Shown: piece by piece, positions 17,608 to 34,959 of the stretch | How the letters are laid out: each line of letters begins with the position of its first letter | How positions within the stretch are numbered: position 1 is the stretch's first letter | Assembly (NCBI RefSeq): GCF_050320075.1 | Contig: NZ_CP190018.1 | DNA length: 64,000 bases | Direction: 5' to 3' (one strand) | DNA from: Escherichia coli | Lineage (GTDB): Bacteria > Pseudomonadota > Gammaproteobacteria > Enterobacterales > Enterobacteriaceae | Made by a program: the position numbers and the translations under genes | Notes under the pieces: generated by a model | The model's database searches: none | What the model saw: the letters and a program-made list of their open reading frames with translations, nothing else | Told to the model about the DNA's origin: nothing

Positions 17608-17682
17608 GAGTCGCTACCTGAAGGAGTTGGGCGGGCAGGTATGTAATTTTACTCGTCGTACTTAATTATGCCAACAAATTAT

Positions 17683-17702
17683 ACTGGATAAAAAAACAGT
17701 TT
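17683..17702. promoter_or_regulatory. LexA (SOS) box of the uvrB promoter
   Basis: tactggataaaaaaacagtt contains CTG-N10-CAG, matching the known uvrB SOS operator, about 80 bp upstream of uvrB. Confidence 0.7.
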
Positions 17703-18003
17703 CTCACCATAATATTTCTGTTACAGCGTAAACTCCGCTGTCAATCATGAGCAAAATTTACTCTGTGGCGAGATAAAACTCCGGCCTTACCGGGTTATCC
17801 CCAAAGCAACGGCTTTTTTAACATTTGTCAAGATGAGTGATGACAGTTTTATGGCAAGAGATGCCTCTTCAGTGACTGCCATTGCAATTATCTAACCAGT
17901 TAAAAAATAAAAGATATTTCTTTGAGCCGTCTTTAACGCCAATTCGCGTGCAAGCCGCGTATTCTCTCGCTTGCCTCGTGTTTTCTAACTCTAATACACA
18001 TGG

Positions 18004-18028
18004 TTATCCACAGGAATAGTGGATAACT
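18004..18028. promoter_or_regulatory. inverted pair of DnaA-box-like 9-mers in the uvrB upstream region
   Basis: ttatccaca (18004-18012) and tggataact (reverse complement agttatcca, 18020-18028). Confidence 0.4.
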
Positions 18029-18185
18029 GTCTGCAGCCCCTATCCCCCGCCGCCTGGGCAATTCCCACATTCACCGCATGATGCGGAGGTAAAATTTTTT
18101 TCGTGATTTTTTTAGAATTTAATTGGTTAAATTGCAGTCAATCGAAGACGCGATCTCGCTCGCAATTTAACCAAGTACAGGATGA

Positions 18186-18863
18186 CTACATTAAGGCAAG
18201 ATTGATGTACTTTCCGGTTGCCGCATTTTCTGGATTTTCTGCAAGCCAGGGAATTTCGCCCAGCAGCGGCGCGGGAATCATGCGGGTGAGCGTGGTCATA
18301 TATTCAGCGTGACGTTTTCCCGGAGGCGTGACATCGTTCGCCACCCAACCCGCCAGAGTCAGTCCGGCGTGTTGTATTGCCTGTGCCGTCAACATCGCGT
18401 GATTAATACAGCCGAGTTTCACACCAACTACCAGTATCACCGGCAGTTGTTCCTGTGTTACCCAATCCGCAAAAGTGAAAGTGTCAGAAAGCGGCGTAAA
18501 CCAGCCGCCAGCACCTTCCACTAACACCCAGTCAGCCTGTTGTTCAAGCGCGCGTAATCCGGCGCTCATTACCAATGATTCTATCGGCCTGCCCTCTTGT
18601 GCGCTGATGATGTGCGGCGAAGTGGGTTCTGCGAAGGTGTAAGGATTTACCGTTGCGTAATCCAGCTGCAGGCTGCTGTTGCGCTGTAACGCCAGCGCGT
18701 CGCTATTACGTAAGCCTTCCGGGGTCTTTTCGCTGCCAGAGGCGACCGGTTTATAACCTGCCGTCCGGTAGCCTACTGCCTTTGCGGCTTGTAAAAGTGC
18801 ACAACTGGCGACGGTTTTCCCCACTTCGGTATCCGTTCCGGTGACAAAATAACGTTTACTCAC
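18186..18863 (-). CDS. bioD: dethiobiotin synthetase
   Basis: 225-aa product from GTG at 18863 ([25 protein letters not shown]), P-loop GTDTEVGKT. Confidence 0.93.
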
Positions 18864-19611
18864 GAGCAATCACTCCCAAAAAAAGATGATACGTCAGAGG
18901 ATATCGCCCCTGTTTTTGTGGCCAGGCCAGTTGCAATCGCTGCAACTGCGAACGCGTTAATATCCGCGGGTCGCGCCCTTCATGAAGATGCGTGGCACCG
19001 ATGCCTTTCAGCGAACGCATGGCACTGAGCGCATCATCAAACCACAGCGTGATGGGCTGAATATGATGTTGATAATGCACGCCGTTCAGTGACTGTTCGA
19101 TTTCATCTGGCGGTAAAAAGCGATTAGCATGCGGACGCTCGTCCACCGCCTGCCACGCCTGATGCAGTTCGGGTAACGATCCCTGCACCAGCGTGGTAAA
19201 CGCGACCACGCCTCCGGGGCGCACCACCCGATACAGCTCGCGGAGTGCCGTGGATAAATTACCGCACCACTGCACCGCGAGATTGCTCCATGCAAGATCG
19301 AAGGTTGCAGTCGCTAACGGCAGGGATTCGATATCTCCCGCCAGATAATGGTCTGCGGCATCCTTCTGGCGTGCCTGAACAAGCATTGGCGGCGAGAGAT
19401 CTAACGCCGTCACCTGCGCGTGACGTTCCCGCCAATGACGGCTCATCCAGCCAGGTCCACAACCCGCATCCAGTACGTGGGTGTATTTACGCTGTGGGAG
19501 CATTGCCAGTAAGACGTCAGCACTCTGGCGCTGTAGATCCGCATGTTGCTCATAGTGCGCGGCTGCCCGACCAAATGCCGCTGCAATGGCTTGTTTATTA
19601 ACCGTTGTCAT
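18856..19611 (-). CDS. bioC: malonyl-ACP O-methyltransferase
   Basis: 251-aa product from [27 protein letters not shown]-binding LDAGCGPG. Confidence 0.93.
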
Positions 19612-20752
19612 GCAGCACCTCCAGCAGACTATCGATATCCTGCATTTCATGCGCTGCGGTTAGCGTTAAGCGCAGTCGCGCAGTACCAGCGGGTACGGTT
19701 GGCGGGCGAATCGCCGTGACCCAGCAACCTTGCTGGCGCAGTTTTTCTGCCAGTTGTAACGCACGGCTGTTATCACCGACGATCAATGGCTGGATGGCGC
19801 TCCATGAATCAGCAAGCGTAAACGGCAAATCCTGCACTCCGGCACGAAAACGCGTAATGAGTGCCGCCAGTTTTTCGCGCCGTGCATCACCCTCATCACT
19901 GCGAATGACCGCCAGCGACGCACGTAATGCCTGCGCCTGAGCGGGCGGCATACTGGTGCTGTAGATAAGATGGCGGGCGAATTGCAGCAGATAATCCGCC
20001 ACCGTATTGGAGCAAAGCACCGCTGCCCCGCTGACGCCAAATCCTTTGCCAAAAGTCACCACCAGCAATTCTGGTTTTACCTTTTGCAGCCAGCAGCTGC
20101 CACGCCCCTGCTCCCCGATAACGCCCGTGCCGTGGGCGTCATCGACCATCAACCAGCCATCGTGCTGTTGCGTTACCTGCTGGATTTCCTCCAGTGGCGC
20201 ACTATCGCCGTCCATGCTGAACACGCCTTCTGTCACTACCAGTTGCTGCCCCGGACAGGGGGAAGCAAGCAGTCGCGCCAGATGAGTGACATCGTTATGA
20301 GCAAAACGGCGAAGCGGCGACGGGCTTAAACTTGCAGCCTCCAGCAATGAGGCATGGCTAAGCCGGTCGGCAACAATACGGTCCTCTTTCGCCATCATCG
20401 CGGTAATAACTGCCTGGTTAGCGGCAAAACCAGAGATAAACAGCAGTGCCCGCGAATAGCCCAGCCACTCGGCCAGTTCTTCTTCCAGCGCCTGATGCGC
20501 CACGCTATAACCGCTGACGTGACCGGAGCCGCCGCTACCGACGCCAAATTGCTCCGCACTCAGCTTCCAGGCACGGATAATTTGCGGATGATGGCTTAAA
20601 CCTAAATAATCGTTACTGGAAAAGTTCAGATACTGGCGATCGTCCGCCACCAGCCAGCGTCCGGCTCCTTGCGCCACTGGATAACGGCGACGCAGGGCAT
20701 CGGCAGCACGCCGCGCATCGAGCGCCGCGTTGATTTTCTCCTGCCAGCTCAT
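19598..20752 (-). CDS. bioF: 8-amino-7-oxononanoate synthase
   Basis: 384 aa, [29 protein letters not shown]-dependent aminotransferase fold. Confidence 0.95.
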
Positions 20753-21789
20753 AGTGCTGCCGCGTTGTAATATTCGTCAGTGTCCGGGGTCATCAGCGCC
20801 TGCTCCAGACGCTGCTGTTGTTCGTTATCGCCCGCCAGCACGGCAGTTTGCTGCGGATTTAGCCCCAGTTTGCGGAACAGTTGCAGGTCTTTATCTTCTT
20901 CCGGATTCGGCGTGGTCAGCAGTTTGCAACCGTAGAAAATCGAGTTTGCGCCAGCCATAAAGCACATCGCCTGAGTCTGTTCGTTCATCTGCTCGCGTCC
21001 GGCAGAAAGGCGTACGTAAGAGGTCGGCATCATGATCCGCGCAACTGCAATGGTGCGAATAAAATCAAAGGCATCGACATCATCGTTATCAGCAAGCGGC
21101 GTGCCTTTCACCTTCACCAGCATGTTGATTGGTACGCTTTCCGGCGGCGTTGGCAGGTTTGCCAGTTGCAGCAATAATCCGGCGCGATCTTTTACTGTTT
21201 CGCCTAAGCCCACAATGCCGCCCGAGCAGACTTTGATCCCGGCGTCGCGCACTTTTTCCAGCGTATCGAGGCGTTCCTGATAGGTACGCGTGGTGATGAT
21301 ATTGCCGTAAAACTCCGGCGAGGTGTCGAGGTTGTGGTTGTAGTAATCCAGCCCGGCGTTCGCAAGGCGCTGCGCCTGAGATTCACTCAACGTACCCAGC
21401 GTCATACACGCCTCCAGCCCCATCGCTTTTACTCCCTGCACCATTTGTTCCAGGTAGGGCATATCGCGTTCGTGGGGATTCTTCCACGCCGCGCCCATGC
21501 AGAAGCGCGTCGATCCTGCCGCTTTCGCTTTGCGCGCCGACTCCAGCACCTGTTCAACTTCCATCAACCGCTCGGCTTCCAGCCCGGTTTTGTAGCGCGA
21601 GCTTTGCGGGCAGTATTTGCAATCTTCCGGACAAGCTCCGGTCTTAATCGACAGCAAAGTGCTGACCTGCACCTGACGTGGATCGAAATGCTGACGATGC
21701 ACCTGCTGCGCTTCAAACAGCAGATCCAGCAACGGTTTTTCAAATAATTCTGTGACTTGCGACAATGTCCAGCGTGGGCGGTGAGCCAT
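20749..21789 (-). CDS. bioB: biotin synthase (radical SAM)
   Basis: 346 aa, [46 protein letters not shown] cluster motif. Confidence 0.96.
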
Positions 21790-21829
21790 AGGGCTTCTCC
21801 AAAACGTGTTTTTTGTTGTTAATTCGGTG

Positions 21830-21870
21830 TAGACTCGTAAACCTAAATCTTTTCAATTTGGTTTACAAGT
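21830..21870. promoter_or_regulatory. bio operator (BirA-binding palindrome) with divergent bioA/bioBFCD promoters
   Basis: cgtaaacctaaatcttttcaatttggtttacaag is the near-perfect bioO palindrome, between bioB start (21789) and bioA start (21876). Confidence 0.8.
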
Positions 21871-21875
21871 CGATT

Positions 21876-23165
21876 ATGACAACGGACGATCTTGCCTTTG
21901 ACCAACGCCATATCTGGCACCCATACACATCCATGACCTCCCCGCTACCGGTTTATCCAGTGGCGAGCGCCGAGGGTTGCGAGCTAATTTTGTCTGACGG
22001 CAGACGCCTTGTTGACGGTATGTCGTCCTGGTGGGCGGCGATCCACGGTTACAATCACCCGCAGCTTAATGCGGCGATGAAATCGCAAATTGATGCTATG
22101 TCGCATGTGATGTTTGGCGGTATCACCCATGCGCCCGCCATTGAGCTGTGCCGCAAATTGGTGGCAATGACGCCGCAACCGCTGGAGTGCGTTTTTCTCG
22201 CGGACTCCGGCTCCGTAGCGGTAGAAGTGGCGATGAAAATGGCGTTGCAGTACTGGCAGGCCAAAGGCGAAGCGCGCCAGCGTTTTCTGACCTTCCGCAA
22301 TGGTTATCATGGCGATACCTTTGGCGCGATGTCGGTGTGCGATCCGGACAACTCAATGCACAGCCTGTGGAAAGGCTATCTGCCAGAAAACTTGTTTGCT
22401 CCCGCCCCGCAAAGCCGCCTGGATGGTGAATGGGATGAACGCGATATGGTGGGCTTTGCCCGCCTGATGGCGGCGCATCGTCATGAAATCGCCGCAGTGA
22501 TCATTGAACCGATTGTCCAGGGCGCAGGCGGGATGCGCATCTACCATCCGGAATGGTTAAAACGAATCCGCAAAATGTGCGATCGCGAAGGTATCTTGCT
22601 GATTGCCGACGAGATCGCCACCGGATTTGGTCGTACCGGCAAACTGTTTGCCTGTGAACATGCAGAAATCGCGCCGGATATTTTGTGTCTCGGTAAAGCC
22701 TTAACCGGCGGCACAATGACCCTTTCCGCCACGCTCACCACGCGCGAGGTTGCGGAAACCATCAGTAACGGCGAAGCCGGCTGCTTTATGCATGGGCCAA
22801 CTTTTATGGGCAATCCGCTGGCCTGCGCAGCAGCAAACGCCAGCCTGGCGATTCTCGAATCTGGCGACTGGCAGCATCAGGTGGCGGCTATTGAAGGGCA
22901 GCTACGCGAGCAACTTGCCCCCGCCTGTGACGCCGAAATGGTTGCCGATGTGCGCGTACTGGGGGCAATCGGCGTGGTCGAAACCACTCGTCCGGTGAAT
23001 ATGGCAGCGCTGCAAAAATTCTTTGTCGAACAGGGTGTCTGGATCCGGCCTTTTGGCAAACTGATTTACCTGATGCCGCCCTATATTATTCTCCCGCAAC
23101 AGTTGCAGCGTCTGACCGCAGCGGTTAATCGTGCGGTGCAGGATGAAACATTTTTTTGCCAATAA
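21876..23165 (+). CDS. bioA: adenosylmethionine-8-amino-7-oxononanoate aminotransferase
   Basis: ORF 21813..23165; 429-aa product from [23 protein letters not shown]. Confidence 0.95.
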
Positions 23166-23223
23166 CGGGAAGTTAGCGTGAGGGTTTCTGGCTACACTTT
23201 CTGCAAACAAGAAAGGAGGGCTC

Positions 23224-23700
23224 ATGAAACTCATCAGTAATGATTTACGCGATGGCGATAAGCTGCCGCATCGTCATGTCTTTAACGGCATGGGTTACGA
23301 TGGCGATAATATTTCACCGCATCTGGCGTGGGATGATGTTCCTGTGGGAACGAAAAGTTTTGTTGTCACCTGCTACGACCCGGATGCGCCAACTGGCTCC
23401 GGCTGGTGGCACTGGGTAGTTGTTAATTTACCCGCGGATACCCGCGTATTACCGCAAGGGTTTGGCTCTGGTCTGGTAGCAATGCCAGACGGCGTTTTGC
23501 AGACGCGTACCGACTTTGGTAAAACCGGATACGATGGCGCAGCGCCGCCGAAAGGCGAAACCCATCGCTACATTTTTACCGTTCACGCGCTGGATGTAGA
23601 ACGTATTGATGTCGATGAAGGTGCCAGCGGCGCGATGGTCGGGTTTAACGTTCATTTTCACTCTCTGGCGAGAGCCTCGATTACTGCGATGTTTAGTTAA
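23224..23700 (+). CDS. ybhB: PEBP/YbhB-family protein (kinase-inhibitor homolog)
   Basis: 158 aa, MKLISNDLRDGDKLPHRHVFNGMGYDGDNISPHLAWDDVP; last host gene before att-lambda. Confidence 0.93.
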   Translation: MKLISNDLRDGDKLPHRHVFNGMGYDGDNISPHLAWDDVPVGTKSFVVTCYDPDAPTGSGWWHWVVVNLPADTRVLPQGFGSGLVAMPDGVLQTRTDFGKTGYDGAAPPKGETHRYIFTVHALDVERIDVDEGASGAMVGFNVHFHSLARASITAMFS

Positions 23701-23790
23701 TCACTCTGCCAGATGGCGCAATGCCATCTGGTATCACTTAAAGGTATTAAAAACAACTTTTTGTCTTTTTACCTTCCCGTTTCGCTCAAG

Positions 23791-23805
23791 TTAGTATAAA
23801 AAAGC
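23791..23805. other. lambda att core (O) at the attR junction (host B' arm / core / phage P arm)
   Basis: ttagtataaaaaagc is the reverse complement of the 15-bp core GCTTTTTTATACTAA; left flank cgctcaag matches attB. Confidence 0.9.
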
Positions 23806-23960
23806 TGAACGAGAAACGTAAAATGATATAAATATCAATATATTAAATTAGATTTTGCATAAAAAACAGACTACATAATACTGTAAAACACAACATATGC
23901 AGTCACTATGAATCAACTACTTAGATGGTATTAGTGACCTGTAACAGAGCATTAGCGCAA
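23806..23960. promoter_or_regulatory. lambda attP P arm (Int arm-type, IHF, Xis/Fis site region) as part of attR
   Basis: Reverse complement reads ...CTGTTACAGGTCACTAATACCATCTAAGTAGTTGATTCATAGTGACTGCATATGTTGTGTTTTACAGTATTATGTAGTCTGTTTTTTATGCAAAATCTAATTTAATATATTGATATTTATATCATTTTACGTTTCTCGTTCAGC, matching the lambda P arm from memory. Confidence 0.85.
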
Positions 23961-24510
23961 GGTGATTTTTGTCTTCTTGCGCTAATTTTTTGTCATCAAA
24001 CCTGTCGCACTCCAGAGAAGCACAAAGCCTCGCAATCCAGTGCAAAGCTTTGTGTGCCACCCACTACGGCCCGCATAACCAGTAAGAAGATAGCAGTGAT
24101 GTCAAACGACGCAGCAGTCTTCTTTTCTTTCACACTTTCCCCCACCCAGCATACATACCTTTCTGCCACAGCTGAAATGAATGTCTATTATGAGCAAGGA
24201 GAGGAAATTCGTAATTGTCATCATCAATGGCGATTTGCTGGTACTATCTGTGTTAAGTAATAGGAAAACAAGTAACTGGAGAAAGATTTGATTTACACAC
24301 TATTATAGCAGTTAATAGTTTAAGCTATTGACACTTTAACTATTTTGCATAAAGTTAAACATAACAACCCCATAAATTGATAATGCAAGAGAGTACTGAA
24401 CTAAGTATTTTAGCTCTACCATATTGCCCAGGCAGTATAATATATGATACATTAAAAAATTAGATTTAATTTACTTAAACATCCTAATCACACTAAGAAT
24501 GAAGAAATAA

Positions 24511-25389
24511 ATGCTGTTTAAATATTGTCCTATTAATGAGTATTCAATTAAATCTCTAGTGGAAAACAAACTATATCTTAATCATCTCAACATGATGAAT
24601 GACAGTGCTGAAGGTTTTTGTAAGATAATAAGTGGTTTCCCAGATTATAATGAAAAAACTGAGAGATATGATTTGATAATAAAAACATGGTGTGGAGAGT
24701 CTGGCTGGCTACCTTCTGAATATGAATATAACGAATATATTGATTCAATGAGAGAACTGGAACCAAATGTCCCGCAATTGCTGGACTCTGCAAGGATATC
24801 ATGCTTTACGAATACGGCGTTAAACCCTACAATGTGGGCTCATTATGCTAACAACAGAACAGGTATATGTATAGAATTCGATCAAGACAAAATAAGAGAA
24901 CTAGAGGATATCTATATCTTTGACGTCAAATATAAAGATCGCCCTCCGACTATTGATACTGCAGTACTAACATTAATAGCTGATCAGGTGAACTATAATC
25001 ATGATGCAATTTATGATGATTATCAAGAAAAGTTCAAACATCTTTATGAACAAGCATTTGACGAGGGAAGAAATTTGCTTTTGGAAATTTACAATGGAAT
25101 ATTGGCAACTAAATCTCAAGAATGGTCTTATGAACAAGAAAAACGGCTAATATATATTTTATCCTTCTCACAAGAAGACAAATTGGCAAAAAAATATAAA
25201 ACTGGCATAAACATATCACTCCCTGAAGGATGCATTAAAAGTGTTATCCTAGGTGAGAAGACAAGTGAGCATGATAAAAAACTTATAGTTTCAGCTATAA
25301 AAAAACATTCTAAACACATTAAGTTGAAGAGAGCTACAATAACACAAGGCGAATATTTATTATCTATTCGTGATGAAGTTTTTAGCTGA
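24511..25389 (+). CDS. hypothetical protein, DUF2971-like (cargo of the b-region slot)
   Basis: 292-aa ORF in roughly 30% GC DNA; N-terminus MLFKYCPINEYSIKSLVENKLYL...NDSAEGF and central NPTMWAHYANNRTGICIEFD resemble DUF2971 signatures as I remember them. Confidence 0.6.
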   Translation: MLFKYCPINEYSIKSLVENKLYLNHLNMMNDSAEGFCKIISGFPDYNEKTERYDLIIKTWCGESGWLPSEYEYNEYIDSMRELEPNVPQLLDSARISCFTNTALNPTMWAHYANNRTGICIEFDQDKIRELEDIYIFDVKYKDRPPTIDTAVLTLIADQVNYNHDAIYDDYQEKFKHLYEQAFDEGRNLLLEIYNGILATKSQEWSYEQEKRLIYILSFSQEDKLAKKYKTGINISLPEGCIKSVILGEKTSEHDKKLIVSAIKKHSKHIKLKRATITQGEYLLSIRDEVFS

Positions 25390-25678
25390 TGGTATTATAA
25401 TCGAACAGATATTTTCTCCTAAGCGTTGCATTTATCCCACGGTAACATATTCATACTCAAATATCCTGCGACATGGAAGATTTGAGTATGGTTGTTCTTC
25501 ATGAGCGAAAAGCAGATGTTCGCGCTAAGGTATAATCAATTGGTTGTTAAATAGTTTAAACACAAGCAATGACTAATAAAACAATGCCACAAACCTTATT
25601 ATTTCTAAACTAGCATTTAGCTTTCAGACAATTTATTGATTGTTAATACATATTTTTAATATTTAATTATCATTTATT

Positions 25679-25689
25679 CCCCCCCCCCC
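25679..25689. repeat. homopolymeric C11 tract (possible slipped-strand or phase-variable site)
   Basis: tt-ccccccccccc-tcatg, in the intergenic region about 245 bp upstream of ORF 25935. Confidence 0.8.
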
Positions 25690-25934
25690 TCATGCTTATC
25701 AAATACTTCACAACAACGGAATTTTAATCCACATTTGTTATCTGTCTCTATCAGATTCATCCATACCCCCCTCCATTATTATTTAATTTCCAGATAAAAA
25801 TCTTCATCCTGTTATACATATAAAAAAGTGCAATATTTAAATAATGATAACAAATTATTGATTTTGCTCACATAAATTTTATTGACAAGATGATAAGCTG
25901 ATATCTACACATTGTATTTTCTCAAGAGGAATTT

Positions 25935-26348
25935 ATGGCTGACATTGTCACTGGTTTGACCGCACTCAAAACCGCCTTTGATTTAGCAAAAGATATAAAA
26001 AATGCCACTGGCGCATACAATGATGCAGAAATGAGGCTTAAGTTTAGTGAGCTTTATAGCGCGCTATCTGAAGCCAAAATAGAACTGGCTGATACACAGC
26101 TAGAAATGTATGAACTAAAGCTGAAGATCGAAGAGTTGCAAGCTAAGCTTGATGCATCGGACGAGCTTGAATATAGGGAAAACGTATACTGGAGGGCCTC
26201 ACCTATCAATGGCAAACCAAACGGTCCTTTTTGCCCAAGATGTTATGAAAGTTCAGAGAAGAAGCTATCTTCAATGAGTCAAGTAACGGGGCATGCAACT
26301 ATTGCTGGAAAATACAAATGTAATACTTGTAACGCCTACGTTAGATAA
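25935..26348 (+). CDS. hypothetical coiled-coil protein with C-terminal four-cysteine zinc-ribbon-like motif
   Basis: 137 aa; N-terminal heptad-rich helix (LSEAKIELADTQLEMYELKLKIEELQAKLDA), C-terminal CPRC...(23 aa)...CNTC; AT-rich; preceded by aagaggaa RBS-like sequence. Confidence 0.55.
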   Translation: MADIVTGLTALKTAFDLAKDIKNATGAYNDAEMRLKFSELYSALSEAKIELADTQLEMYELKLKIEELQAKLDASDELEYRENVYWRASPINGKPNGPFCPRCYESSEKKLSSMSQVTGHATIAGKYKCNTCNAYVR

Positions 26349-26684
26349 AAAGCCGTTATGGGGCTGGGACGGAGGCTCAAATCCTCTCGTGCAAAAATTC
26401 AGCTAAAACTTTTGTTCAGGAGACTCTGAAAGATACCAAGAAGTCTGCTGACGAGTGGTTTATTTACTAATTAGCACGTAAAATCTATTATGGCTGGAAA
26501 TCATTCAATACTCGTACTATCGAAAGTTCGCCAGCCGACAGCAAAACGCTATTGCATGGCAGGGATTGCAGGCCTCTCGATATTCGGTGCTAAGGATGTA
26601 TCAACACGGTTCAGCAGAACCCGATGCGTCTTCAAAACCGCAGCAACGATATCTCTTCCTCCGTTCCATTTACAGCCACCTTTT

Positions 26685-26993
26685 TCACCCTCGATTAACC
26701 AACAACCAGACCAGAAGACACGCTACCACCGGCACAGCAAAATCCATCAGGCTTGCCATATCCCACGCGCGTGGGTCAAAACCGCCCCACCACGGCATAT
26801 TCATTCGCTTGCCATGCCCGAACATTTCGATCCAGCGATATTCTGCCTGGGTGTGTTCACGCGCAATGAAGAACGTACAACCGGCTATCGCCCCGTAAGC
26901 CCAGTTCCCGGTAAAAAGACCAATCAGTAGCTGCGCAGCCACAGCACAAAGCGCATGAAGGAAAGGTGTTATATCCATTTTCATCCCACCCAA
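26685..26993 (-). CDS. hypothetical small membrane protein
   Basis: 102-aa ORF with two hydrophobic segments, immediately downstream of the tail-fibre genes on the late strand. Confidence 0.45.
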   Translation of the reverse strand: MGGMKMDITPFLHALCAVAAQLLIGLFTGNWAYGAIAGCTFFIAREHTQAEYRWIEMFGHGKRMNMPWWGGFDPRAWDMASLMDFAVPVVACLLVWLLVNRG

Positions 26994-27020
26994 TAAAACG
27001 GGGCGCTCGGCCCCTTAATA

Positions 27021-28061
27021 TTATTTAGACGCAAGCGCCGCATCAATTGCAGATAATCTTTGTCTTAATTCTGCGTTTTCTTCTTCCAGTGCTGTTATTC
27101 TGTCGTCTGACTCTCTGGCTACCTGAACAAGCAAGCCAGTAACACCAGAATAATCTACTGTGTAATAACGTTCACCTTCTTCACCTTCCGATCCGCTCGC
27201 ACCGTCCTGATATTTCATTACGGAACCTACAACTTCTGGGATTGCTTCCAGAGCTTCCTGTGCAATGACACCAGCATAGGGCATACCGTTTTCTTTAAGC
27301 GTGTATGTATAGCCGTTCATTTTACGGATGCGGTCGGTTGCATTATCGATCACCTGAATGTTGTCTTTCAGATCCCGGTCGGAATGCTGGTTAAATGCGG
27401 TGGCATGACATGCACCATTAACGCTTAACATATAGGTGTTATCGGTATTTTTCTGCGCATAGAACATATAAGCGCCACCATCAACACCGACTTCATAAAC
27501 AACAGGACGGCTGGAGTTGCCCCACAATTGAGCAGTAACACCAGCATAAGCGGTTCCCTGTGTGTTTAATGTCATGGTTGACCCATGATTGGCATATTTG
27601 ATCTGTAATGTGTCGGTGTAATCAAATTTAATAAGCGCGTTACTTCCACGCTTGCTGTATGACATAAGGCAGTTACCCATTTTGAGGTATCCGCTGTCAC
27701 CGGGAAAAATCATCGTACCGCCATAAAGGTTGGTAAAGTCCCAGCAAATGTTTGTCCCGTTATCGTTCAGGTTAAGGCGCGCCATTGCGTTACCTGGACT
27801 GTCTATCCATTTTTTGAGGTATAGTTCGCAATATGCATCCTCAACACCTGCCGTCCTGTGAGTTGAGCGGAGTTTTCTCCCAAATATAGCTCCGCTAGTT
27901 GGCAATACCTGCTGATACCATGAAGCAGACCAGTCACCAACGGTTTCATCTTTGCTGTCTACATATGATTTTGTTGCGTAGCTTCCTTGATCGTTTTTTA
28001 ATTTGCTAACGTCGGATTTTAGCGTTTTGATGTCATCAGGAATTACTGTCGATGTAGCCAT
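27021..28061 (-). CDS. tail fibre/spike-like protein with C-terminal intramolecular-chaperone (peptidase S74-like) domain
   Basis: 346 aa; C-terminal 120 aa (SDRDLKDNIQVID...GYTYTLKENGMPYAGVIAQEALEAIPEVVG...YYTVDYSGVTGLLVQVARE...LEEENAELRQRL) resemble the self-cleaving chaperone domain of endosialidase-type fibres. Confidence 0.6.
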   Translation of the reverse strand: MATSTVIPDDIKTLKSDVSKLKNDQGSYATKSYVDSKDETVGDWSASWYQQVLPTSGAIFGRKLRSTHRTAGVEDAYCELYLKKWIDSPGNAMARLNLNDNGTNICWDFTNLYGGTMIFPGDSGYLKMGNCLMSYSKRGSNALIKFDYTDTLQIKYANHGSTMTLNTQGTAYAGVTAQLWGNSSRPVVYEVGVDGGAYMFYAQKNTDNTYMLSVNGACHATAFNQHSDRDLKDNIQVIDNATDRIRKMNGYTYTLKENGMPYAGVIAQEALEAIPEVVGSVMKYQDGASGSEGEEGERYYTVDYSGVTGLLVQVARESDDRITALEEENAELRQRLSAIDAALASK

Positions 28062-28070
28062 TTTTCTTCC

Positions 28071-28352
28071 TCACATCCAGCCACGAAGTTGATGCTCAAC
28101 AGCAACCACGTATTCATCGAATATTGACGGTGTTTTCACATCATTAATGATGCGCACGTTTACAAAATATCCGTCTTCCTTAACACATACCGGTTCGCCA
28201 TCTTCATTCAGTTCTCCGGTTTCTTTGTACACGTTACCTATCACGTCAATAAGAATATCATCCTGCATCGACTCATCATCATAATAGCCAGTGCTATCCA
28301 TAAAGGCCGAAAAATCGGCCCTGTCGGCAAATTTAAGTGTTAAATCTTTCAT
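28071..28352 (-). CDS. hypothetical acidic protein between the two fibre genes
   Basis: 93-aa ORF, start overlaps stop of upstream fibre gene; no recognisable Tfa motif. Confidence 0.5.
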   Translation of the reverse strand: MKDLTLKFADRADFSAFMDSTGYYDDESMQDDILIDVIGNVYKETGELNEDGEPVCVKEDGYFVNVRIINDVKTPSIFDEYVVAVEHQLRGWM

Positions 28353-30754
28353 TTAATACTCTCCCCCATTTGCGCATCAGTTAATTCTTTATGCCAGAGA
28401 CGAAGATTTCTCAAATGGCCGAATAGATGACGTGTCCCTGATGTGGCTTGACCTCCTATTCTAATAAAGGTCCGCGTTTTTACGCCCGTCCATTCCGTTT
28501 CAATGGTTTTAGTAGCCTCACCGTTAGAAACTACTCGTTTAGTACCGTCAGAATAAATATTAAAACCACCAATGAATTTTCGAACATCCGTTCGACCAGT
28601 AAACAAACTAGAAACGTAACTACTTGTCGACGCTTTATAAGTTTGCATATAAAGCTGACCGTAATATCTCTCGGTTGTGTTAAAAGCGTATGTGATTGAC
28701 TCAATAGGCGGCACACCAGAAAAATCAAAAATACGCGGTGCTACATTAGGGGGAATATCGCCCCAATTCCTGTTAACCTCGACCAAACAAGTAAGCGGTC
28801 TGTTATAAATGTTGTTTTCGGTCGGGATCGTAACCATATCACTCGCACGAGTCGCCGCCGTCGCTCCTGATATAATAAAAGATGATACACAAGGCCCATC
28901 TTCTACTTGTGGGGTGGCCAGATAAATATAGTCACCAGATACGGTTGCCCCGCTCTGCTTAGGAGAATACTGTATCTGAGAGCCTATTTTTAACTCCCCA
29001 TCAATTGCCTGAATTGTTGCCTCTGCAAAAATCCATCCGGTAGCTTCGTCCTTTCTGACTCTCGCTGTAATCCTTGAGGCAGCACCGCCTGTCATATTAA
29101 TTTCAAGCGTTTGTGTATCAATATACGCATCACCAAGAAAAGTTGTTGCGCTACCGTCATATTTATCAAACCGGATACGCAACCTTACCTGCAGTTCTGT
29201 TTTAAAACGACATGAGGTTGTCACGTATTTATTATCGCCTGAGACATCAACTGACTTTGTTGCAGCAATTGATGCCATATTAATGGCTGAGGTTTGCCCA
29301 ATCAGAGAATCGTTACAGACAAACTTTCCATAGGTAAAACCAAAACTATCCGTCCCGGTTTCGGGAACATCCATATTTGACGATCGCCCCCAACTGGCAG
29401 GGCTTTCCGAATTGAGCATGTAGTTCGCTCTTTGCCCCTCAATAAGCAGGCCATCACGTTCAAATCGTGGCTCGTCAATGGCAGCCTCTGTCAGCACACC
29501 AGATTTATTAATATAGGTTGCTTTCGATGCGCGTTTAAACTTTACAACCTTATCGCCAGGCATCGTTATTTCATCATCACCAATAACAATCTTTTTATAT
29601 GACGGCGAAAACCCCGTAATCATATCCAGTGAATCGTTAAACGGTATCCACACATCAGGCAACGGCTGCAAAACTTGTTTATACGGCTCCGCTGCCTGGC
29701 TTGCATACTCTCTGGCTGCGTCTTCACTTGCTTTAGCTGCTGTCTGGCTTGCTGCCGATGCTTGCGCCGAGTTCGCCGCTGTAGTCTCGCTCGCCTTTGC
29801 GTTGTCTTCACTGGTTTTTGCAGCTCTTTGACTGTTGGCTGATGCCGTGGCAGAAGCAGCCGCCGCGCTTGCAGAACCAGCTGCGGCACTCTCGCTTTGG
29901 GCCGCTGCATCCTGACTGTTTTTCGCCGCAGTTTCGCTGGCTTTGGCATTCGTTTCGCTGGTCTTCGCTGCAGTCTCGCTTGTCTTTGCGTTGGTTTCAC
30001 TGGTTTTTGCAGCTCTTTGACTGTTGGCTGATGCCGTGGCAGAAGTAGCCGCCGCACTTGCAGAACTGGCTGCCGCTCTCTCGCTTTGGGCTGCTGCATC
30101 CTGACTGTTTTTTGCTGCGGTAGCGGAGTTTGCTGCGGCACTCTGACTCGATTCTGCAGCCACCTCGCTATTTTTCGCATTAGTTTCGCTGGTCTTTGAA
30201 GCTGTCTCACTCGCTTTTGAGTTGTTTTCTGATTTTTTGGCTGCAGTCGCGGAGTTTGCCGATGCAGTCTGTGAGGCCGCTGCCGCCTGTGCGCTGTTAG
30301 CTGCATTCGTTTCTGAGGTTTTCGCCGCGTTCTTCGATGATGCCGCTGCAGTTTCGGATGTCTTTGCCGCCGCTGCGCTCTGAGAGGCGGCTTCAGCGTT
30401 GCGTGCCGCTTCTTCCACCATTTCCTGAAAACGGCGCAATGCCTCCGGCATGACATCATCTTCCGTCATGGCACCGAGAAAATCATTCAGCGTCCCCGGA
30501 CTGGAACCTTCATAGACGGTAATGGTCCCGGCATGTGAAGGCGGAAAACCTTCAACCAGCAGGATGACGCTGTACTGGCCATACTCAACGTCCATACTGT
30601 AACGCCCGGCTTCATCAGGATTTTCAGAGGCCACCGTGTTCACCAGTACCGTGGTGCTGTTACGCTTTGCCTTCAGTTGAATAGTGCAGTTCTGTATTGG
30701 TTTTCCCGCACCATCTTTCAGCACACCTGAGATTTTTACTGCTGCCATATCCAC
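28349..30754 (-). CDS. stf: side tail fibre protein (Stf-like): lambda-type N-terminus, Ala/Ser/Thr-rich repeat shaft, divergent C-terminal domain
   Basis: 801 aa; N-terminus MAAVKISGVLKDGAGKPIQNCTIQLKAKRNSTTVLVNTV...GRYSMDVEYGQYSVIL matches lambda Stf; central AAKTSETNAK/AAAQSE repeats; C-terminal 450 aa unlike lambda. Confidence 0.85.
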   Translation of the reverse strand: MDMAAVKISGVLKDGAGKPIQNCTIQLKAKRNSTTVLVNTVASENPDEAGRYSMDVEYGQYSVILLVEGFPPSHAGTITVYEGSSPGTLNDFLGAMTEDDVMPEALRRFQEMVEEAARNAEAASQSAAAAKTSETAAASSKNAAKTSETNAANSAQAAAASQTASANSATAAKKSENNSKASETASKTSETNAKNSEVAAESSQSAAANSATAAKNSQDAAAQSERAAASSASAAATSATASANSQRAAKTSETNAKTSETAAKTSETNAKASETAAKNSQDAAAQSESAAAGSASAAAASATASANSQRAAKTSEDNAKASETTAANSAQASAASQTAAKASEDAAREYASQAAEPYKQVLQPLPDVWIPFNDSLDMITGFSPSYKKIVIGDDEITMPGDKVVKFKRASKATYINKSGVLTEAAIDEPRFERDGLLIEGQRANYMLNSESPASWGRSSNMDVPETGTDSFGFTYGKFVCNDSLIGQTSAINMASIAATKSVDVSGDNKYVTTSCRFKTELQVRLRIRFDKYDGSATTFLGDAYIDTQTLEINMTGGAASRITARVRKDEATGWIFAEATIQAIDGELKIGSQIQYSPKQSGATVSGDYIYLATPQVEDGPCVSSFIISGATAATRASDMVTIPTENNIYNRPLTCLVEVNRNWGDIPPNVAPRIFDFSGVPPIESITYAFNTTERYYGQLYMQTYKASTSSYVSSLFTGRTDVRKFIGGFNIYSDGTKRVVSNGEATKTIETEWTGVKTRTFIRIGGQATSGTRHLFGHLRNLRLWHKELTDAQMGESIK
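29770..30140. repeat. tandem direct repeat of 189 bp (about 90% identical copies) inside stf
   Basis: tcactggtttttgcagctctttgactgttggctgatgccgtggcagaag at 29808 recurs at 29997; flanking sequence also repeats. Confidence 0.85.
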
Positions 30755-30812
30755 TCCACAAAAAAGCCCGCCTGAACCGGCGGGCTGTCATAACACTGTG
30801 TTACCTGGCTAA

Positions 30813-31412
30813 TCAGAATTTATAACCGACACCCACGATGAAACCGTCAGTGTGCCAGTCACCACTGCCGGAGCCTTCATAAGCAAGGTCAATGGCCACG
30901 GATTCGGTCGGGTTAAACTGCACGCCAGCCCCCCACGCCAGAGACGTGTCGCTGTGGCGACCGTCATCACTTCCGTTCAGCACATCGTACGTTTTCCCCT
31001 TATTGTCAGTTACGCGGAGATAATCCCCGGAGAAGGTCGACACACGGCTGTAAGCCACGCCCGCCATCGCATACGCGCTGAACCATTCATTCACGCGTAC
31101 AGACGGCCCCGCCATCATGCTGAACCAGCGGTTACGCACTGAATCTTCATGCCAGCGGGTATCGCTGTAACGGGTAATCTGGCGATTCTTGTCTCCTGCA
31201 TAACTGAATGACGTCACCAGCCCCAGCGTGTCCGTAAATTCATAACGGTATTTCACGTTAATGCCCTTCAGGTCATCACTGCCTGGCATATCAGTATGGG
31301 CCTGAAGATACCCGGCGCTTAGTGTGGACTGATGCTCTGCTGCGCTCGCTGGCGTACCAACGGCAACCAGCCAGACTACTGCGGACAGAATAACAGCACA
31401 TAATTTACGCAT
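30813..31412 (-). CDS. lom: outer-membrane protein Lom (Ail/PagC/OmpX family)
   Basis: 199 aa with signal peptide and C-terminal ...[11 protein letters not shown] identical to the lambda Lom terminus; directly downstream of J. Confidence 0.9.
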
Positions 31413-31479
31413 AATTACCTCTCGCTTTTCTGCAATAAAAAAGGCGTCATTTCTGACGCCCGTATTGGGGTTATAAAAT

Positions 31480-34400
31480 TCAGCTGATACTGATGCCTGC
31501 GGTGGCTTTCTTCATCACCACAACCAGCAAATCGCTGATACTTGCTGTGGGATACCAGTCATTTACCAGCCATGCTGACACCGAAAACTCCAGCGTCATG
31601 TGACCGTGACCGGCAGGCATATCAACAACGCCACTGTAAATCAGCGTATTATCCAGCGCGGTACGGTTATAAATTTCAGCACCGTTTTTCCGCACTATCA
31701 GACGGCATGAGGAGTAAATATCAGTATGCTCTCTCTCATGTTTAGCGCCGCTGAATGCCACCGCCGGAATAACAATCTGCCGGTCAAACGGCTGATCGTC
31801 ATAAACCCTGACGGTAATGGTCCCTGATGGCCACCGTTCCGGTGCACGGGAGTCACGGGGGAAAGCTTTGCCCACTGTTTTAACGAGATCGCCTTCAATC
31901 TGGTTCGCGGACAGTTTTCCCAGAACCCGGCAATTCTCGTTAATCGTGACGTTGTTGAGCGTCCCGGAGTTCGCATTCACGTTACCGCTGATATCGGCAT
32001 TTTTTGCCGTCAGCCGCCCGTCCGGTGTCAGGGAAAATGCCGGAGGATTACCGCCGCTGGTAATGGTGGGAGCCGTCAGATATTTCAGGAACACTTCATT
32101 CATAAATATCTGATCGCCCTGACCAACAAACATCGGCTTTGTGTTGCCATTCGCAGGATTAATCATCGCAATCCTGTCTGCCGCCAGCAGCACCTGACTC
32201 TGCATGCCGTCAGGGGTGTTTTCAATACCGGCACCAATACCCGCGATATAAAGGCGTCCGTCCTGCATCTGCTGCAGCTTCACAGCCCACATGCTGCTCA
32301 GGTTATTATTTGTATCAACCTGAACCTTCTGTATCTGCTGGATCGCTGCACTCTGGTCTTCCAGTTTCTTATTGACGGTCTGCGTGATTTCATTGCTGAC
32401 ATCCGTAATGGACGTCCTGATTTCAGCCAGGTCAGGCGCAAGCTGACCGTTATCAATCTGCGTCCACAGCTCCTGAGCCAGATGGGTTTTCCCTATCTCT
32501 CCTTTGAAAAAATCCAGATAGCCGGATGCATCATCACTCGGCTGGCCAACAGCCTCCACAAATGCCGATTTGCCAACGGTGTTCACACTGCGGATGTAAA
32601 AATAATAATCACGGCCCGGTTTGATATTGATACTGGCGGCTATCCAGTACAGCGCCGTGCCAAGATAGCGGGCTGTGGTTTCAACCTGCCTGATATCGGT
32701 AATCCGCGTTTCCGAGAACCAGAACTCAAACTGTACCGTCGGATCATAAACCGCAAGATGCGGCGTGGCAGTTATCTGAAAATAGCCCGGCGTCAGCTCA
32801 ATCCGCGACGGCGCTGCCGGTGCGGCAATCCGGAACGATACCGACGCCGGATCGCCCTGCTGCCCCCAGGCATTTGCCGCCCGGACTGTCAGCCTGTAGT
32901 TTCCCAACGCCAGTTGCGTGAAGCGGTATGTGGTTTCCGTCGTCCGGGCCGTGCTGACCAGCCGCTCACTGCCGTCATCCGCTGCCACGGTCAGGCGAAG
33001 CATAAAGCTCACGCCCTTCACCACCTTCGGCGTGTCCCAGCGCGCCAGTACCTGATATTCCCCGCTGTCTGCGGTGACTTCGGCAGTCAGGTGCTGCACC
33101 GCTGGCGGCGTGACACCATTCACCGTGCCACTCTGGTCGCCGTCAAAGTGCGCCCCGTTATCCACGATGGCCTCTTTTTCCGGCACATGCTGCACAGCGG
33201 TGATGGCATACGTGCCGTCGTCGTTCTCACGGATACTCACACAGCGGAACAGGCGCTGACGCAGCATCGGCAGCTTCAGCCCCCACACGCTGTATTCGGC
33301 AACGCCGTCAGGAACACGGCTCACTTTTACCTTCACGCCGTCGGTGACGGACTGGACCTCCACGCTCACCGGATTACCCTGCCCGTCAACCAGGCTTATC
33401 AGCGTGGTACCGGAGGATGGCAGCGTGATTTCACGGTCGAGCGTCAGCGTCCGGGTCTGGCTGTTCACCGCCAGCACGCGACCACCGATGCTGATACCGG
33501 CATAGTCATCATCACAGATTTCAATGACATCGCCCGGTACATGGCGAAGCCCTTCGGCACCCACGCTGAAGTCCACGGTCTGCGTTTCCAGCAGTTCCGT
33601 TTTAATCAGCCACAGCCCGGCGCGGTGCGCCTGCCCCCGGCTGGTACAGCCAAAGGCATCCATCTTCGTGACGTTACGACCGTAACGGAGAATGGCCTGC
33701 GTATCTTCAACAAGCTCTGTCGCCGTCTCCCAGCCGTTATTCGGGTCAATCCAGTTCACCTCAACGGCATTATGGCGGTCCTTCAGGGCGCTGAAGCTGT
33801 AGCGGAACGGCGCGCCATCATCCGGCATCACCACATTACTGTGGTTATAGGTCCACACCTTATCCGACGGTCGGTCCTGCACGAACGTCAGCGTCTGCCC
33901 GTTCCATACCGGCATACAGCGCATCGCCGAACAGAAATCACTGAGCACATCCCACGCCTTACGCTGTGTGGTCAGCCAGGCATTACAGGTGATGCGCGGC
34001 TCCGTACCACCAAAGCCATCCGGCACTGACTGATCGCAATACTGGCCGATGACATACAGCGCCCATTTGTCCACATCCGCCGCACCAAGACGTTTCCCCA
34101 TGCCGTAGCGCGGGTGGGTCAGCATATCCCACAGACACCAGGCCATGTTGTTGCTGTATGCCGGTTTAAACGTCCCGTCCCAGATACCGCTGTATTGCCG
34201 CGTCTGCGGGTTATAGTTCGATGGCACCTGCAGAATGCGCCCGCGAAGATGATAATTACGGCTCACCTGCTGGCTGCCGAACTGTTCCGAGTCCACCTGC
34301 ACGCCGACCAGTGCCGTGTTCGGGTAGCACTGTTTCACATCGATGATTTCAGTGTATGACGACCAGAGCGTTTTGTTCTGCAGCTGGTCTGTGGTGCTGT

Positions 34401-34959
34401 CCGGCGTCATCCTGCGCATCCGGATATTAAACGGGCGCGGCGGCAGGTTACCCACCACCACCGATGCCAGATACTGTGAGGTGGTTTTGCCTTTAATGGT
34501 GATGTCTTTTTCCGTCACCCAGCCACCGTTACGCTGTATCTGAACCAGCAGGCGGACTTCCGACGGATTCCGGTCCCCCTTTGAGGTGGTTTCCACCAGT
34601 GCCTGCACACCGAAGGTAAAGCGCAGACGGTCGATGTTTGCAGACGTGATGGTCCGGGTAATCGGCGTGTCGTACTTCACTTCCGTACCCAGCACCGTCT
34701 CGGAGCCGGAGGATTCAAATCCCTCCGGCGGTGTCTGCTCCTGCTCACCTGCCCGGAAAACCACCGTGACACCGGAGATATTGGTATTCCCCTCACTGTC
34801 CAGCACTGGCGTACTGTTCAGCAGCACACTTTTTAATCCGTCCACCGGACCTTCAATCGGCCCTTCACTGATGGCGTCTATCACGCTCAGCATCTGCGTG
34901 GACTTCAGGTTGTCCTTCGCTTCGCGCGGGGTATGCCCCTTACTGCTGCCTTTACCCAT
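31480..34959 (-). CDS. J: tail tip host-specificity protein J with divergent C-terminal receptor-binding region
   Basis: 1159 aa; [22 protein letters not shown]... near-identical to lambda gpJ for about the first 800 residues; last 330 residues diverge. Confidence 0.93.

What the first reader, a model, noticed from the sequence alone, without database searches (positions are those of the whole stretch)
25679..25689. C11 homopolymer in the promoter-proximal region of the coiled-coil/zinc-ribbon gene
An 11-nt poly-C run sits in very AT-rich intergenic DNA between the DUF2971-like gene and the next gene. Tracts of this length are prone to slipped-strand mispairing and are classic on/off switches when they lie in a promoter spacer or 5' leader. 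It could make expression of the downstream cargo gene phase-variable.
Basis: seen in the sequence. Interest (0 to 1): 0.45.

Follow-up and report, generated by a model that had tools for sequence, protein, structure and literature searches.

The report
Variable poly-C run in prophage spacer
An 11-base run of C in a non-coding spacer at the end of an E. coli prophage is real and changes length (9-11) between near-identical strains, but it lies about 200 bases upstream of the conserved regulatory region of the next gene, so it looks like a slippage-prone by-product rather than an on/off switch.

Summary
The C11 run at 25679-25689 is real. It is the only G/C run of 7 or more in the 64-kb window. 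The locus occurs in 45 of 5426 complete E. coli genomes and 4 metagenome contigs, with C9 (5), C10 (42) or C11 (2, plus the window). Otherwise identical 18-kb haplotypes carry different lengths, which requires at least 5 independent changes, or some assembly errors. So the tract is hypermutable.

The switch interpretation is not supported:
- The tract ends 245 nt before the ATG, 168 nt before the only upstream block conserved across homologous loci, and 204 nt before the best -10-like element.
- Only background-level hexamer pairs span it, and no ORF crosses it.
- None of about 23 diverged homologous loci has a G/C tract upstream.

The tract sits in a mosaic spacer. One part is the 5' remnant of an integrase gene with its leader hairpin. 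The other is a decayed att-like region that travels with the downstream gene.

That downstream gene is probably a distant relative of Rip1, a prophage-encoded anti-phage protein. The upstream DUF2971 gene matches the candidate defence family PDC-S31.

Verdict: an ordinary hypermutable homopolymer. A regulatory role is unproven and unlikely.

The parts
25679..25689 (+). C11 homopolymer (G11 on the minus strand). Length-polymorphic: C9, C10 or C11 in other copies of the locus, with C10 the mode.
25390..25934 (.). 545-nt spacer, 30% G+C, between the DUF2971 gene and the Rip1-like gene. It is a mosaic of remnants. No intrinsic terminator is predicted, and no plus-strand promoter hit of 9/12 or better.
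25428..25516 (-). Remnant of the 5' end and leader of a roughly 200-aa 'site-specific integrase' gene. The remnant ATG is at 25454 on the minus strand and reads MNMLPWDKCNA*. It includes a hairpin at 25453-25489 that in intact copies covers the integrase SD and ATG. It is 80-85% identical to an element present in about 915 of 5426 E. coli genomes.
25636..25934 (+). Region homologous to the roughly 300-nt upstream region of Rip1-like genes in other Enterobacterales prophages. In those prophages this region holds the attachment site (a tRNA-Leu(UAA) 3' part). Here it is decayed, with GGAATTTTAATCC at 25718-25730 as the anticodon-loop remnant. The C tract falls in a non-conserved stretch of this region.
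25858..25877 (+). TTGATTTTGCTCACATAAAT: the only upstream block conserved across diverged loci (consensus TTTGATTTTACTCACATAAAT). Probable promoter or operator region of the Rip1-like gene (inferred).
25891..25899 (+). TGaTAAGCT, an extended -10-like element. It aligns with TAAACT, TAAAAT or TAATCT in homologous loci. It is my candidate for the core promoter (inferred, not tested).
   Evidence: read from the sequence
25935..26348 (+). 137-aa coiled-coil plus C4 zinc-ribbon protein. It belongs to a conserved family (52-88% identity in Citrobacter, Kosakonia, Pantoea, Klebsiella and phage contigs). It falls in PHROG 1244, the same PHROG as Rip1 (PDB 9oox), so it is probably a distant Rip1-like defence protein. 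The SD AGAGGA is at 25925-25930.
24511..25389 (+). DUF2971 protein (292 aa). It matches the PADLOC candidate single-gene defence family PDC-S31 (E 9.5e-38) and PHROG 1762.
26353..26392 (+). Decayed 3' fragment of tRNA-Pro(GGG), a second fossil attachment site, immediately downstream of the Rip1-like gene. It is collinear with intact-looking fragments in L011 and L013.
23787..24209 (-). Homology to the P arm of phage lambda (lambda 27319-27742, 95.8% identity). This is the attR junction of this lambdoid prophage next to ybhB-bioA.

Best explanation
The C tract is a lineage-specific, slippage-prone homopolymer in non-functional mosaic DNA, not a regulatory element. The spacer was assembled from two remnants. 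One is the decapitated 5' end and leader of a small integrase gene. The other is a decayed attachment-site region that travels with the Rip1-like gene in related prophages. The tract lies in a poorly conserved stretch of the second remnant. During replication a run of 9-11 C:G pairs misaligns often, so the tract gains or loses one base far more frequently than ordinary sites mutate. That produces the C9/C10/C11 polymorphism. The downstream gene is most likely expressed from its own conserved proximal region (25858-25899), and possibly also by read-through from the DUF2971 gene. Tract length is not expected to change its expression. Shown: the tract, its polymorphism and homoplasy, its position, its absence from homologous loci, and the mosaic origin of the spacer. 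Inferred: lack of regulatory effect, the position of the promoter, and slippage rather than assembly error as the source of each variant.
For: The tract is unique in the window. Of 45 complete genomes, 2, 39 and 4 have matches of 111, 110 and 109 nt; 10 of these were read and are C11, C10 and C9. Four metagenome contigs have C10 three times and C9 once. The tract is the only indel in the fetched 6-18 kb loci, apart from the recombinant tail-gene block of strain 144, and in most of them the only difference within the central 3.3 kb. In the haplotype table, identical 18.1-kb haplotypes carry C10 and C11 (group I), C9, C10 and C11 (IIa), and C9 and C10 (IIb). By parsimony that is at least 5 changes, against 9 substitution sites in 18.1 kb. 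Indel rates in E. coli rise exponentially with run length, and 8-bp G:C runs are already outliers in K-12 (PMC8510543). No promoter hit of 9/12 or better overlaps the tract, and the spanning pairs of 7-8/12 are at background density. No ORF longer than 50 codons, stop to stop, crosses it at C8-C13. There is no Rfam match. Upstream homology among diverged loci is strongest in the proximal block, 168 nt downstream of the tract. The distal part aligns weakly but significantly (z 4.3-4.6), with non-homopolymer sequence at the tract position. None of about 23 diverged loci has a G/C run of 7 or more within 600 nt upstream. The integrase remnant is documented, and the tRNA-derived att remnants.
Against: No expression data exist, so absence of function is argued only from position and lack of conservation. 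Phase-variable tracts that act at a distance are known; nadA of Neisseria meningitidis is an example (from my own knowledge). The promoter of the downstream gene is not mapped, and the scan found no good sigma-70 site anywhere in the spacer on the plus strand. A weak promoter-like pair (TTGATT-16-AATATT, 8/12, 25636-25663) would start transcription just upstream of the tract and place it in a long leader. The locus is known only from one clonal sequence, so there is no evolutionary depth to judge whether the tract is maintained by selection. The tract has persisted at 9 or more C in all 49 copies.
Confidence: 0.7

Rival explanations
1. Transcriptional phase-variation switch. Tract length sets the spacing or helical phase between an upstream element and the promoter of the Rip1-like gene, or alters a long 5' leader. 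Slippage would then turn the defence gene up or down in a fraction of cells.
For: The tract is long enough and demonstrably variable between near-identical strains. The downstream gene is a plausible costly defence or abortive-infection gene, for which bet-hedging would make sense (PMC12908700). Weak hexamer pairs span or precede the tract. No terminator separates the tract from the gene.
Against: The tract ends 245 nt from the ATG, 168 nt from the conserved proximal block and 204 nt from the -10-like element. The spanning hexamer pairs are at background level. No homologous locus has a tract. C10 dominates at 86% of copies, unlike the broad on/off mixtures typical of contingency loci (my own knowledge).
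Confidence: 0.1
2. The length differences are sequencing or assembly errors at a hard-to-call homopolymer. The true tract would then be C10 everywhere, and the window's C11 would itself be an error.
For: Runs of 9 or more C are known weak points of long-read basecalling (my own knowledge). Variants are a minority (7 of 49). The two UK isolates from one project both show C9. Homoplasy on identical haplotypes is also what random error would give.
Against: Variants occur in independent projects and in 1 of 4 metagenome contigs. Apart from strain 144's recombinant block, no other indel appears in the 6-18 kb fetched from the same assemblies, which include A7 and T7 runs. GTEN_23 (C11) and GTEN_97 (C10) come from the same project and share one haplotype. 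Real slippage at such a run is expected from E. coli mutation data. The sequencing platforms could not be checked here.
Confidence: 0.15
3. A switch acting on the minus strand. As G11, the tract would lie in the early transcribed region of a leftward transcript from the promoter-like site at 25750..25721, or in the spacer of ATGAGG-N15-17-GATAAT. It would control a tiny ORF or an RNA antisense to the 3' end of the DUF2971 gene.
For: A minus-strand promoter-like site scoring 9/12 sits about 30 nt upstream of the tract. A pair scoring 8/12 has the tract in its spacer. The mini-ORF ATG-AGG-GGG... changes its end with tract length (read from the sequence).
Against: The mini-ORF is 5-9 codons long and has no Shine-Dalgarno sequence. 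Downstream on that strand lies only the dead integrase remnant. Hits of this quality are expected by chance in 30% G+C DNA. There is no Rfam family and no conservation.
Confidence: 0.03

Closest known systems
Simple-sequence contingency loci with promoter homopolymers (Bordetella pertussis fim2/fim3 poly-C; Neisseria meningitidis porA, opc, fetA poly-G/C)
   Same: A G/C homopolymer of about 9-15 nt in non-coding DNA upstream of an accessory gene, with length varying by single units among closely related isolates through slipped-strand mispairing.
   Different: In those loci the tract lies inside the -35/-10 spacer, or between an activator site and the core promoter, and its length is tied to expression. 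Here the tract is about 170-200 nt upstream of the conserved proximal region, no credible promoter spans it, and no expression link is known. E. coli is also not a species rich in such loci (my own knowledge).
Neutral polymorphic homopolymeric tracts catalogued in clonal pathogens (e.g. the Bordetella pertussis survey, PMC1891110, which I listed but did not read)
   Same: An intergenic tract that varies between isolates of a clonal lineage without a demonstrated phenotype.
   Different: None of substance. This is the category the tract best fits.
Rip1 (ring interacting pore 1; PDB 9oox), a prophage-encoded anti-phage protein that binds the phage small-terminase ring
   Same: The gene downstream of the tract shares PHROG 1244 with Rip1. 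Both have an N-terminal coiled coil and a C-terminal CxxCYESSxK...CxxCNA zinc ribbon, are of similar size (137 vs 164 aa), and are carried by prophages.
   Different: The similarity is distant: phmmer E 0.45, profile E 0.075, hhalign probability 91.5% over the C-terminal 71 columns. Foldseek against PDB gave no significant match. Activity was not tested. This comparison concerns the neighbouring gene, not the tract.

Membership tests
Transcriptional phase-variation (contingency) locus driven by a homopolymer | Uninterrupted mononucleotide tract long enough to slip (about 8 nt or more) | tested here: met
   C11 at 25679-25689, and C9-C11 in other copies
Transcriptional phase-variation (contingency) locus driven by a homopolymer | Tract length varies among closely related isolates independently of phylogeny | tested here: met
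   C9, C10 and C11 occur on identical 18.1-kb haplotypes, requiring at least 5 changes by parsimony. Assembly error cannot be excluded for individual records.
Transcriptional phase-variation (contingency) locus driven by a homopolymer | Tract lies within the -35/-10 spacer, or between a regulator site and the core promoter, of the controlled gene | tested here: not met
   No hit of 9/12 or better overlaps it. Only background-level pairs of 7-8/12 span it. It is 168 nt from the conserved proximal block and 204 nt from the -10-like element. The promoter is not mapped experimentally.
Transcriptional phase-variation (contingency) locus driven by a homopolymer | Tract length correlates with expression or phenotype | not testable with these tools
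   Needs reporter fusions, RNA-seq or phage-challenge assays
Transcriptional phase-variation (contingency) locus driven by a homopolymer | Tract maintained at the homologous position in diverged relatives | tested here: not met
   None of about 23 diverged loci has a G/C run of 7 or more within 600 nt upstream. The aligned position holds mixed sequence.
Translational phase variation (tract inside an ORF) | Tract lies within a coding sequence whose frame depends on tract length | tested here: not met
   The longest stop-to-stop frame across the tract is 50 codons or fewer at C8-C13 and has no start codon with an SD
Rip1-like prophage defence proteins (downstream gene) | Sequence membership in the same protein family as Rip1 | tested here: met
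   Both match PHROG 1244: the window protein at E 1.3e-16 over its full length, and 9oox_L residues 41-153 at E 5.7e-42. hhalign gives probability 91.5%, E 8.6e-7.
Rip1-like prophage defence proteins (downstream gene) | Coiled-coil N-terminal part plus C4 zinc ribbon | tested here: met
   C100, C103, C129 and C132 are invariant in the 25-sequence alignment. The AF2 model has helices at 2-23 and 30-73, then a small beta domain, with mean pLDDT 78.
Rip1-like prophage defence proteins (downstream gene) | Binds the phage small-terminase ring and blocks phage replication | not testable with these tools
   Known for Rip1 only from a conference report and a citation
PADLOC PDC-S31 candidate defence (upstream DUF2971 gene) | Match to the family HMM | tested here: met
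   PDLC04990, E 9.5e-38, residues 1-288. The defence function of the family is itself only a candidate.

The most novel reading that the evidence does not exclude
The tract is a genuine contingency locus in E. coli. Single-base slippage, about 200 nt upstream of the core promoter, would re-phase an upstream regulatory or nucleoid-protein site, or alter a long leader or antisense RNA. That would make expression of a Rip1-like pore-forming defence protein heterogeneous within a clonal population, as bet-hedging between phage protection and self-toxicity.
Probability: 0.07. Interest if true: 0.6.

Novelty: new member of a known kind. Interest (0 to 1): 0.25.

Why it matters
As it stands, the tract matters little. 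It is a useful hypervariable marker within one E. coli prophage lineage, and a warning that homopolymer length calls at this site differ between assemblies. If tract length were shown to affect the Rip1-like gene, it would be a rare case of slippage-based phase variation in E. coli, and of stochastic control of a prophage-borne defence gene. More useful by-products are the identification of the downstream gene as a probable distant Rip1 relative, and of the prophage's attR-end cargo as two putative defence genes embedded in fossil attachment sites.

Tried and rejected
1. Coding phase variation. Six-frame stop-to-stop analysis with C8-C13 found nothing over 50 codons. Rejected.
2. Known RNA family at the tract. 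The Rfam E-value scan of 23700-27100 gave only a sub-threshold IS009 hit at 26592-26704. Rejected.
3. tRNA gene at the tract. ARAGORN found none; only decayed fragments are recognisable by alignment.
4. Presence of the cargo in sequenced phages. Megablast and tblastn against 50,697 phage records found no copy of 24210-26560. An exact-flank pattern scan of IMG/VR and of GTDB representative genomes found nothing.
5. Promoter with the tract in its spacer. Only hexamer pairs of 7-8/12 were found, at background density. Not supported.
6. Homology of the spacer beyond the 85-nt integrase element in other E. coli loci. None was found.
7. Recurrent G/C tracts as a family trait of Rip1-like loci. One other polymorphic tract exists (G9/G8, downstream of the gene in L011/L012), but none was found upstream in 23 loci. 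Rejected as a family feature.
8. Structural identification of the downstream protein. Foldseek against PDB gave no significant match. The Rip1 link rests on sequence profiles only.
9. Literature on this tract or on PDC-S31. Nothing was found.

Full report
**Setting**

The window runs from the E. coli bio operon (bioA 21813-23165, ybhB 23224-23700) into a lambdoid prophage through its attR junction. Window 23787-24209 is 95.8% identical to the P arm of phage lambda (lambda 27319-27742). Between attR and the tail-fibre genes, which lie on the minus strand from 27021, there is a cargo region of low G+C (30-41%). No sequenced phage record contains this region. It holds:
- a DUF2971 gene (24511-25389);
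- a 545-nt spacer;
- a 137-aa coiled-coil/zinc-ribbon ORF (25935-26348);
- a DinI pseudogene and a tail-fibre-assembly remnant (RefSeq annotation of identical loci).

**The observation**

Positions 25679-25689 are eleven C in a row. No other C or G run of 7 or more exists in the 64 kb. Window composition predicts about 0.06 runs of that length. The qualifier 'promoter-proximal' is not accurate, because the tract ends 245 nt before the ATG.

**Is the tract length variable?**

The spacer is present in 45 of 5426 complete E. coli genomes, always once and always on the chromosome. A 111-nt query centred on the tract matched 111 nt in 2 genomes, 110 nt in 39 and 109 nt in 4. I read the sequence in 10 of them:

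| Tract | Strains |
|---|---|
| C11 | GTEN_23, Ec-U3 |
| C10 | 144, A1_136, YZLc1-3, GTEN_97 |
| C9 | S1-JOR-02-A, E30, AF34, AF60 |

Four metagenome contigs add three C10 and one C9. Across the central 3.3 kb the tract is the only difference in most copies. Apart from the recombinant tail-gene block of strain 144, it is the only indel in the 6-18 kb fetched per strain.

Over 18.1 kb (window 16630-34740), nine strains plus the window differ at only 9 substitution sites and form four haplotypes:

| Haplotype | Members and tract length |
|---|---|
| I | window C11, Ec-U3 C11, YZLc1-3 C10 |
| IIa | GTEN_23 C11, GTEN_97 C10, AF34 C9, AF60 C9 |
| IIb | E30 C9, A1_136 C10 |
| IIc | S1-JOR-02-A C9 |

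By parsimony this needs at least five independent length changes. The 11-nt tract has therefore changed about half as often as the other 18,100 positions combined.

This fits established E. coli mutation data: indel rates rise exponentially with run length, and 8-bp G:C runs are already outliers in K-12 (PMC8510543). I could not check the sequencing platforms, so some variants may be homopolymer miscalls. This is kept as a rival explanation. Against it, the same assemblies show no other indel outside strain 144's recombinant block, the variants come from independent projects, and one variant is in a metagenome contig.

**Does the tract sit in a regulatory or coding element?**

- *Promoters.* The consensus scan found no plus-strand sigma-70-like site in the spacer and none overlapping the tract. 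One minus-strand site (25750..25721) points at it.
- *Relaxed promoter scan.* My scan at C9-C12 found only hexamer pairs of 7-8/12 spanning the tract. Pairs of that quality occur 1.3-3.9 times per 40-nt footprint per strand throughout this spacer, so they carry no weight.
- *Coding.* No stop-to-stop frame longer than 50 codons crosses the tract at C8-C13.
- *RNA.* Rfam has nothing there, and ARAGORN finds no tRNA.

**What the spacer is made of**

Two remnants can be recognised.

The first is at 25428-25516. It is 80-85% identical to an element present in about 915 of 5426 E. coli genomes. In intact copies this element is the first roughly 24 nt plus the leader of a roughly 200-aa 'site-specific integrase' gene. 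A 14-bp-stem hairpin there covers the SD and ATG. In the window the integrase is cut off after MNMLPWDKCNA*, and the hairpin (25453-25489) is slightly degenerate.

The second runs from about 25636 to 25934. The 137-aa protein has 52-88% identical homologues in Citrobacter, Kosakonia, Pantoea, Klebsiella and phage contigs. These always lie at a prophage end between the tail-fibre genes and the attachment site, often near DinI, UmuD-like, UmuC-like or SRAP genes.

Their upstream roughly 300 nt is homologous to the window's. The proximal block (window 25858-25877, consensus TTTGATTTTACTCACATAAAT) is found by BLAST in most loci. The distal part aligns with z = 4.3-4.6 against shuffles for two loci. 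In several loci this distal part contains the reverse-complemented 3' portion of tRNA-Leu(UAA), that is, the attachment site. The window keeps only GGAATTTTAATCC (25718-25730) of it.

The C tract aligns to a non-conserved stretch, for example GTAGCCCCACA in the Kosakonia locus. A decayed tRNA-Pro(GGG) 3' fragment follows the gene at 26353-26392, as in other loci.

The gene therefore travels as a small cassette flanked by fossil attachment sites. The tract is a lineage-specific expansion inside the upstream fossil. None of about 23 diverged loci has a G/C run of 7 or more within 600 nt upstream.

**Where the downstream gene is probably controlled**

This part is inferred. The conserved block at 25858-25877 is followed by TGaTAAGCT (25891-25899). 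That element aligns with TAAACT, TAAAAT or TAATCT in the other loci and looks like an extended -10. These lie 168 and 204 nt downstream of the tract. No terminator is predicted after the DUF2971 gene, so read-through is also possible. In that case the tract would be intercistronic and frame-neutral.

**What the neighbouring genes are**

The DUF2971 protein matches PADLOC PDC-S31, a candidate single-gene defence family (E 9.5e-38).

The 137-aa protein matches PHROG 1244 over its full length (E 1.3e-16). A profile of 25 homologues gives a weak full-length hit to PDB 9oox chain L, 'ring interacting pore 1 (Rip1)' (E 0.075). The printed Rip1 segment (residues 41-153) hits the same PHROG at E 5.7e-42. 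hhalign gives probability 91.5%, E 8.6e-7, with a shared CxxCYESSxK...CxxCNA motif.

[quoted passage not shown] Twelve copies cap an 11-subunit terminase ring (conference report PMC12908700). It is cited elsewhere as a small-terminase sensor (bioRxiv 10.64898/2026.04.30.721860).

The AF2 model (pLDDT 78) shows two long helices plus a small beta/zinc domain. Foldseek against PDB gave nothing significant. The gene is thus probably a distant Rip1-like defence gene, but its function is untested.

**Conclusion**

The tract is real and hypermutable. Every test available here for a regulatory or coding role was negative. The best explanation is a neutral, slippage-prone homopolymer in mosaic, partly fossil DNA (confidence about 0.7). 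A distance-acting switch on a defence gene remains possible (about 0.07-0.1) and would be interesting. It needs read-level tract counts, transcription-start mapping and C9-C12 reporter constructs.

Noticed in passing
window 25428-25516 (hairpin 25453-25489); also L008 2501-2577, L009 2501-2589, L010 2501-2586: An ~85-nt element is conserved at 80-85% identity in about 915 of 5426 complete E. coli genomes. It is the start and leader of a ~200-aa 'site-specific integrase' gene, with a 14-bp-stem hairpin covering its SD and ATG. In the window and in L010 (next to an anti-phage dGTPase gene) the integrase itself is gone. The element seems to mark boundaries of defence-gene cassettes.
   Followed up: partly
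window 25935-26348: The 137-aa coiled-coil/zinc-ribbon protein shares PHROG 1244 and a CxxCYESSxK...CxxCNA motif with Rip1 (PDB 9oox), a prophage-encoded anti-phage protein that caps the small-terminase ring. It is probably a distant Rip1-like defence gene.
   Followed up: partly
L011 4535-4543 and L012 803-810: A second, unrelated polymorphic homopolymer (G9 vs G8) lies ~120 nt downstream of a 78%-identical homologue of the zinc-ribbon gene, upstream of a truncated SRAP gene. The Citrobacter locus L013 has GGGGAATTACTGGGG there, which suggests the run arose by a small deletion between two G4 runs.
   Followed up: partly
window 25636-25730 and 26353-26392: The zinc-ribbon gene is flanked by two fossil attachment sites: a decayed tRNA-Leu(UAA)-type att region upstream and a tRNA-Pro(GGG) 3' fragment downstream. 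Both are collinear with better-preserved copies in Citrobacter and other loci, although this prophage now uses the lambda att site next to ybhB.
   Followed up: partly
window 25765-25770: A C6 run (CATACCCCCCTCC) aligns with a T6-T7 run (ATTTTTTCGCC) in homologous upstream regions. This looks like a block T-to-C replacement and is unexplained.
   Followed up: no
window 24511-25389: The DUF2971 protein matches the PADLOC candidate defence family PDC-S31 (E 9.5e-38) and PHROG 1762. A DUF2971 gene also lies near the zinc-ribbon homologue in the Kosakonia locus L017, on the opposite strand.
   Followed up: partly
window 26592-26704 (minus strand): A sub-threshold Rfam match to IS009 (41.6 bits against a gathering score of 117, E 1.7e-7) lies next to or overlaps the 3' end of a 102-aa ORF (26685-26993, minus strand; PHROG 1443, unknown function).
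   Followed up: no
window 30272-34565 compared with L033 (strain 144): Strain 144 carries a heavily diverged, evidently recombinant version of the side tail fibre, lom and J region (about 200 differences), while the cargo region is identical. This points to tail-gene exchange within this prophage lineage.
   Followed up: no
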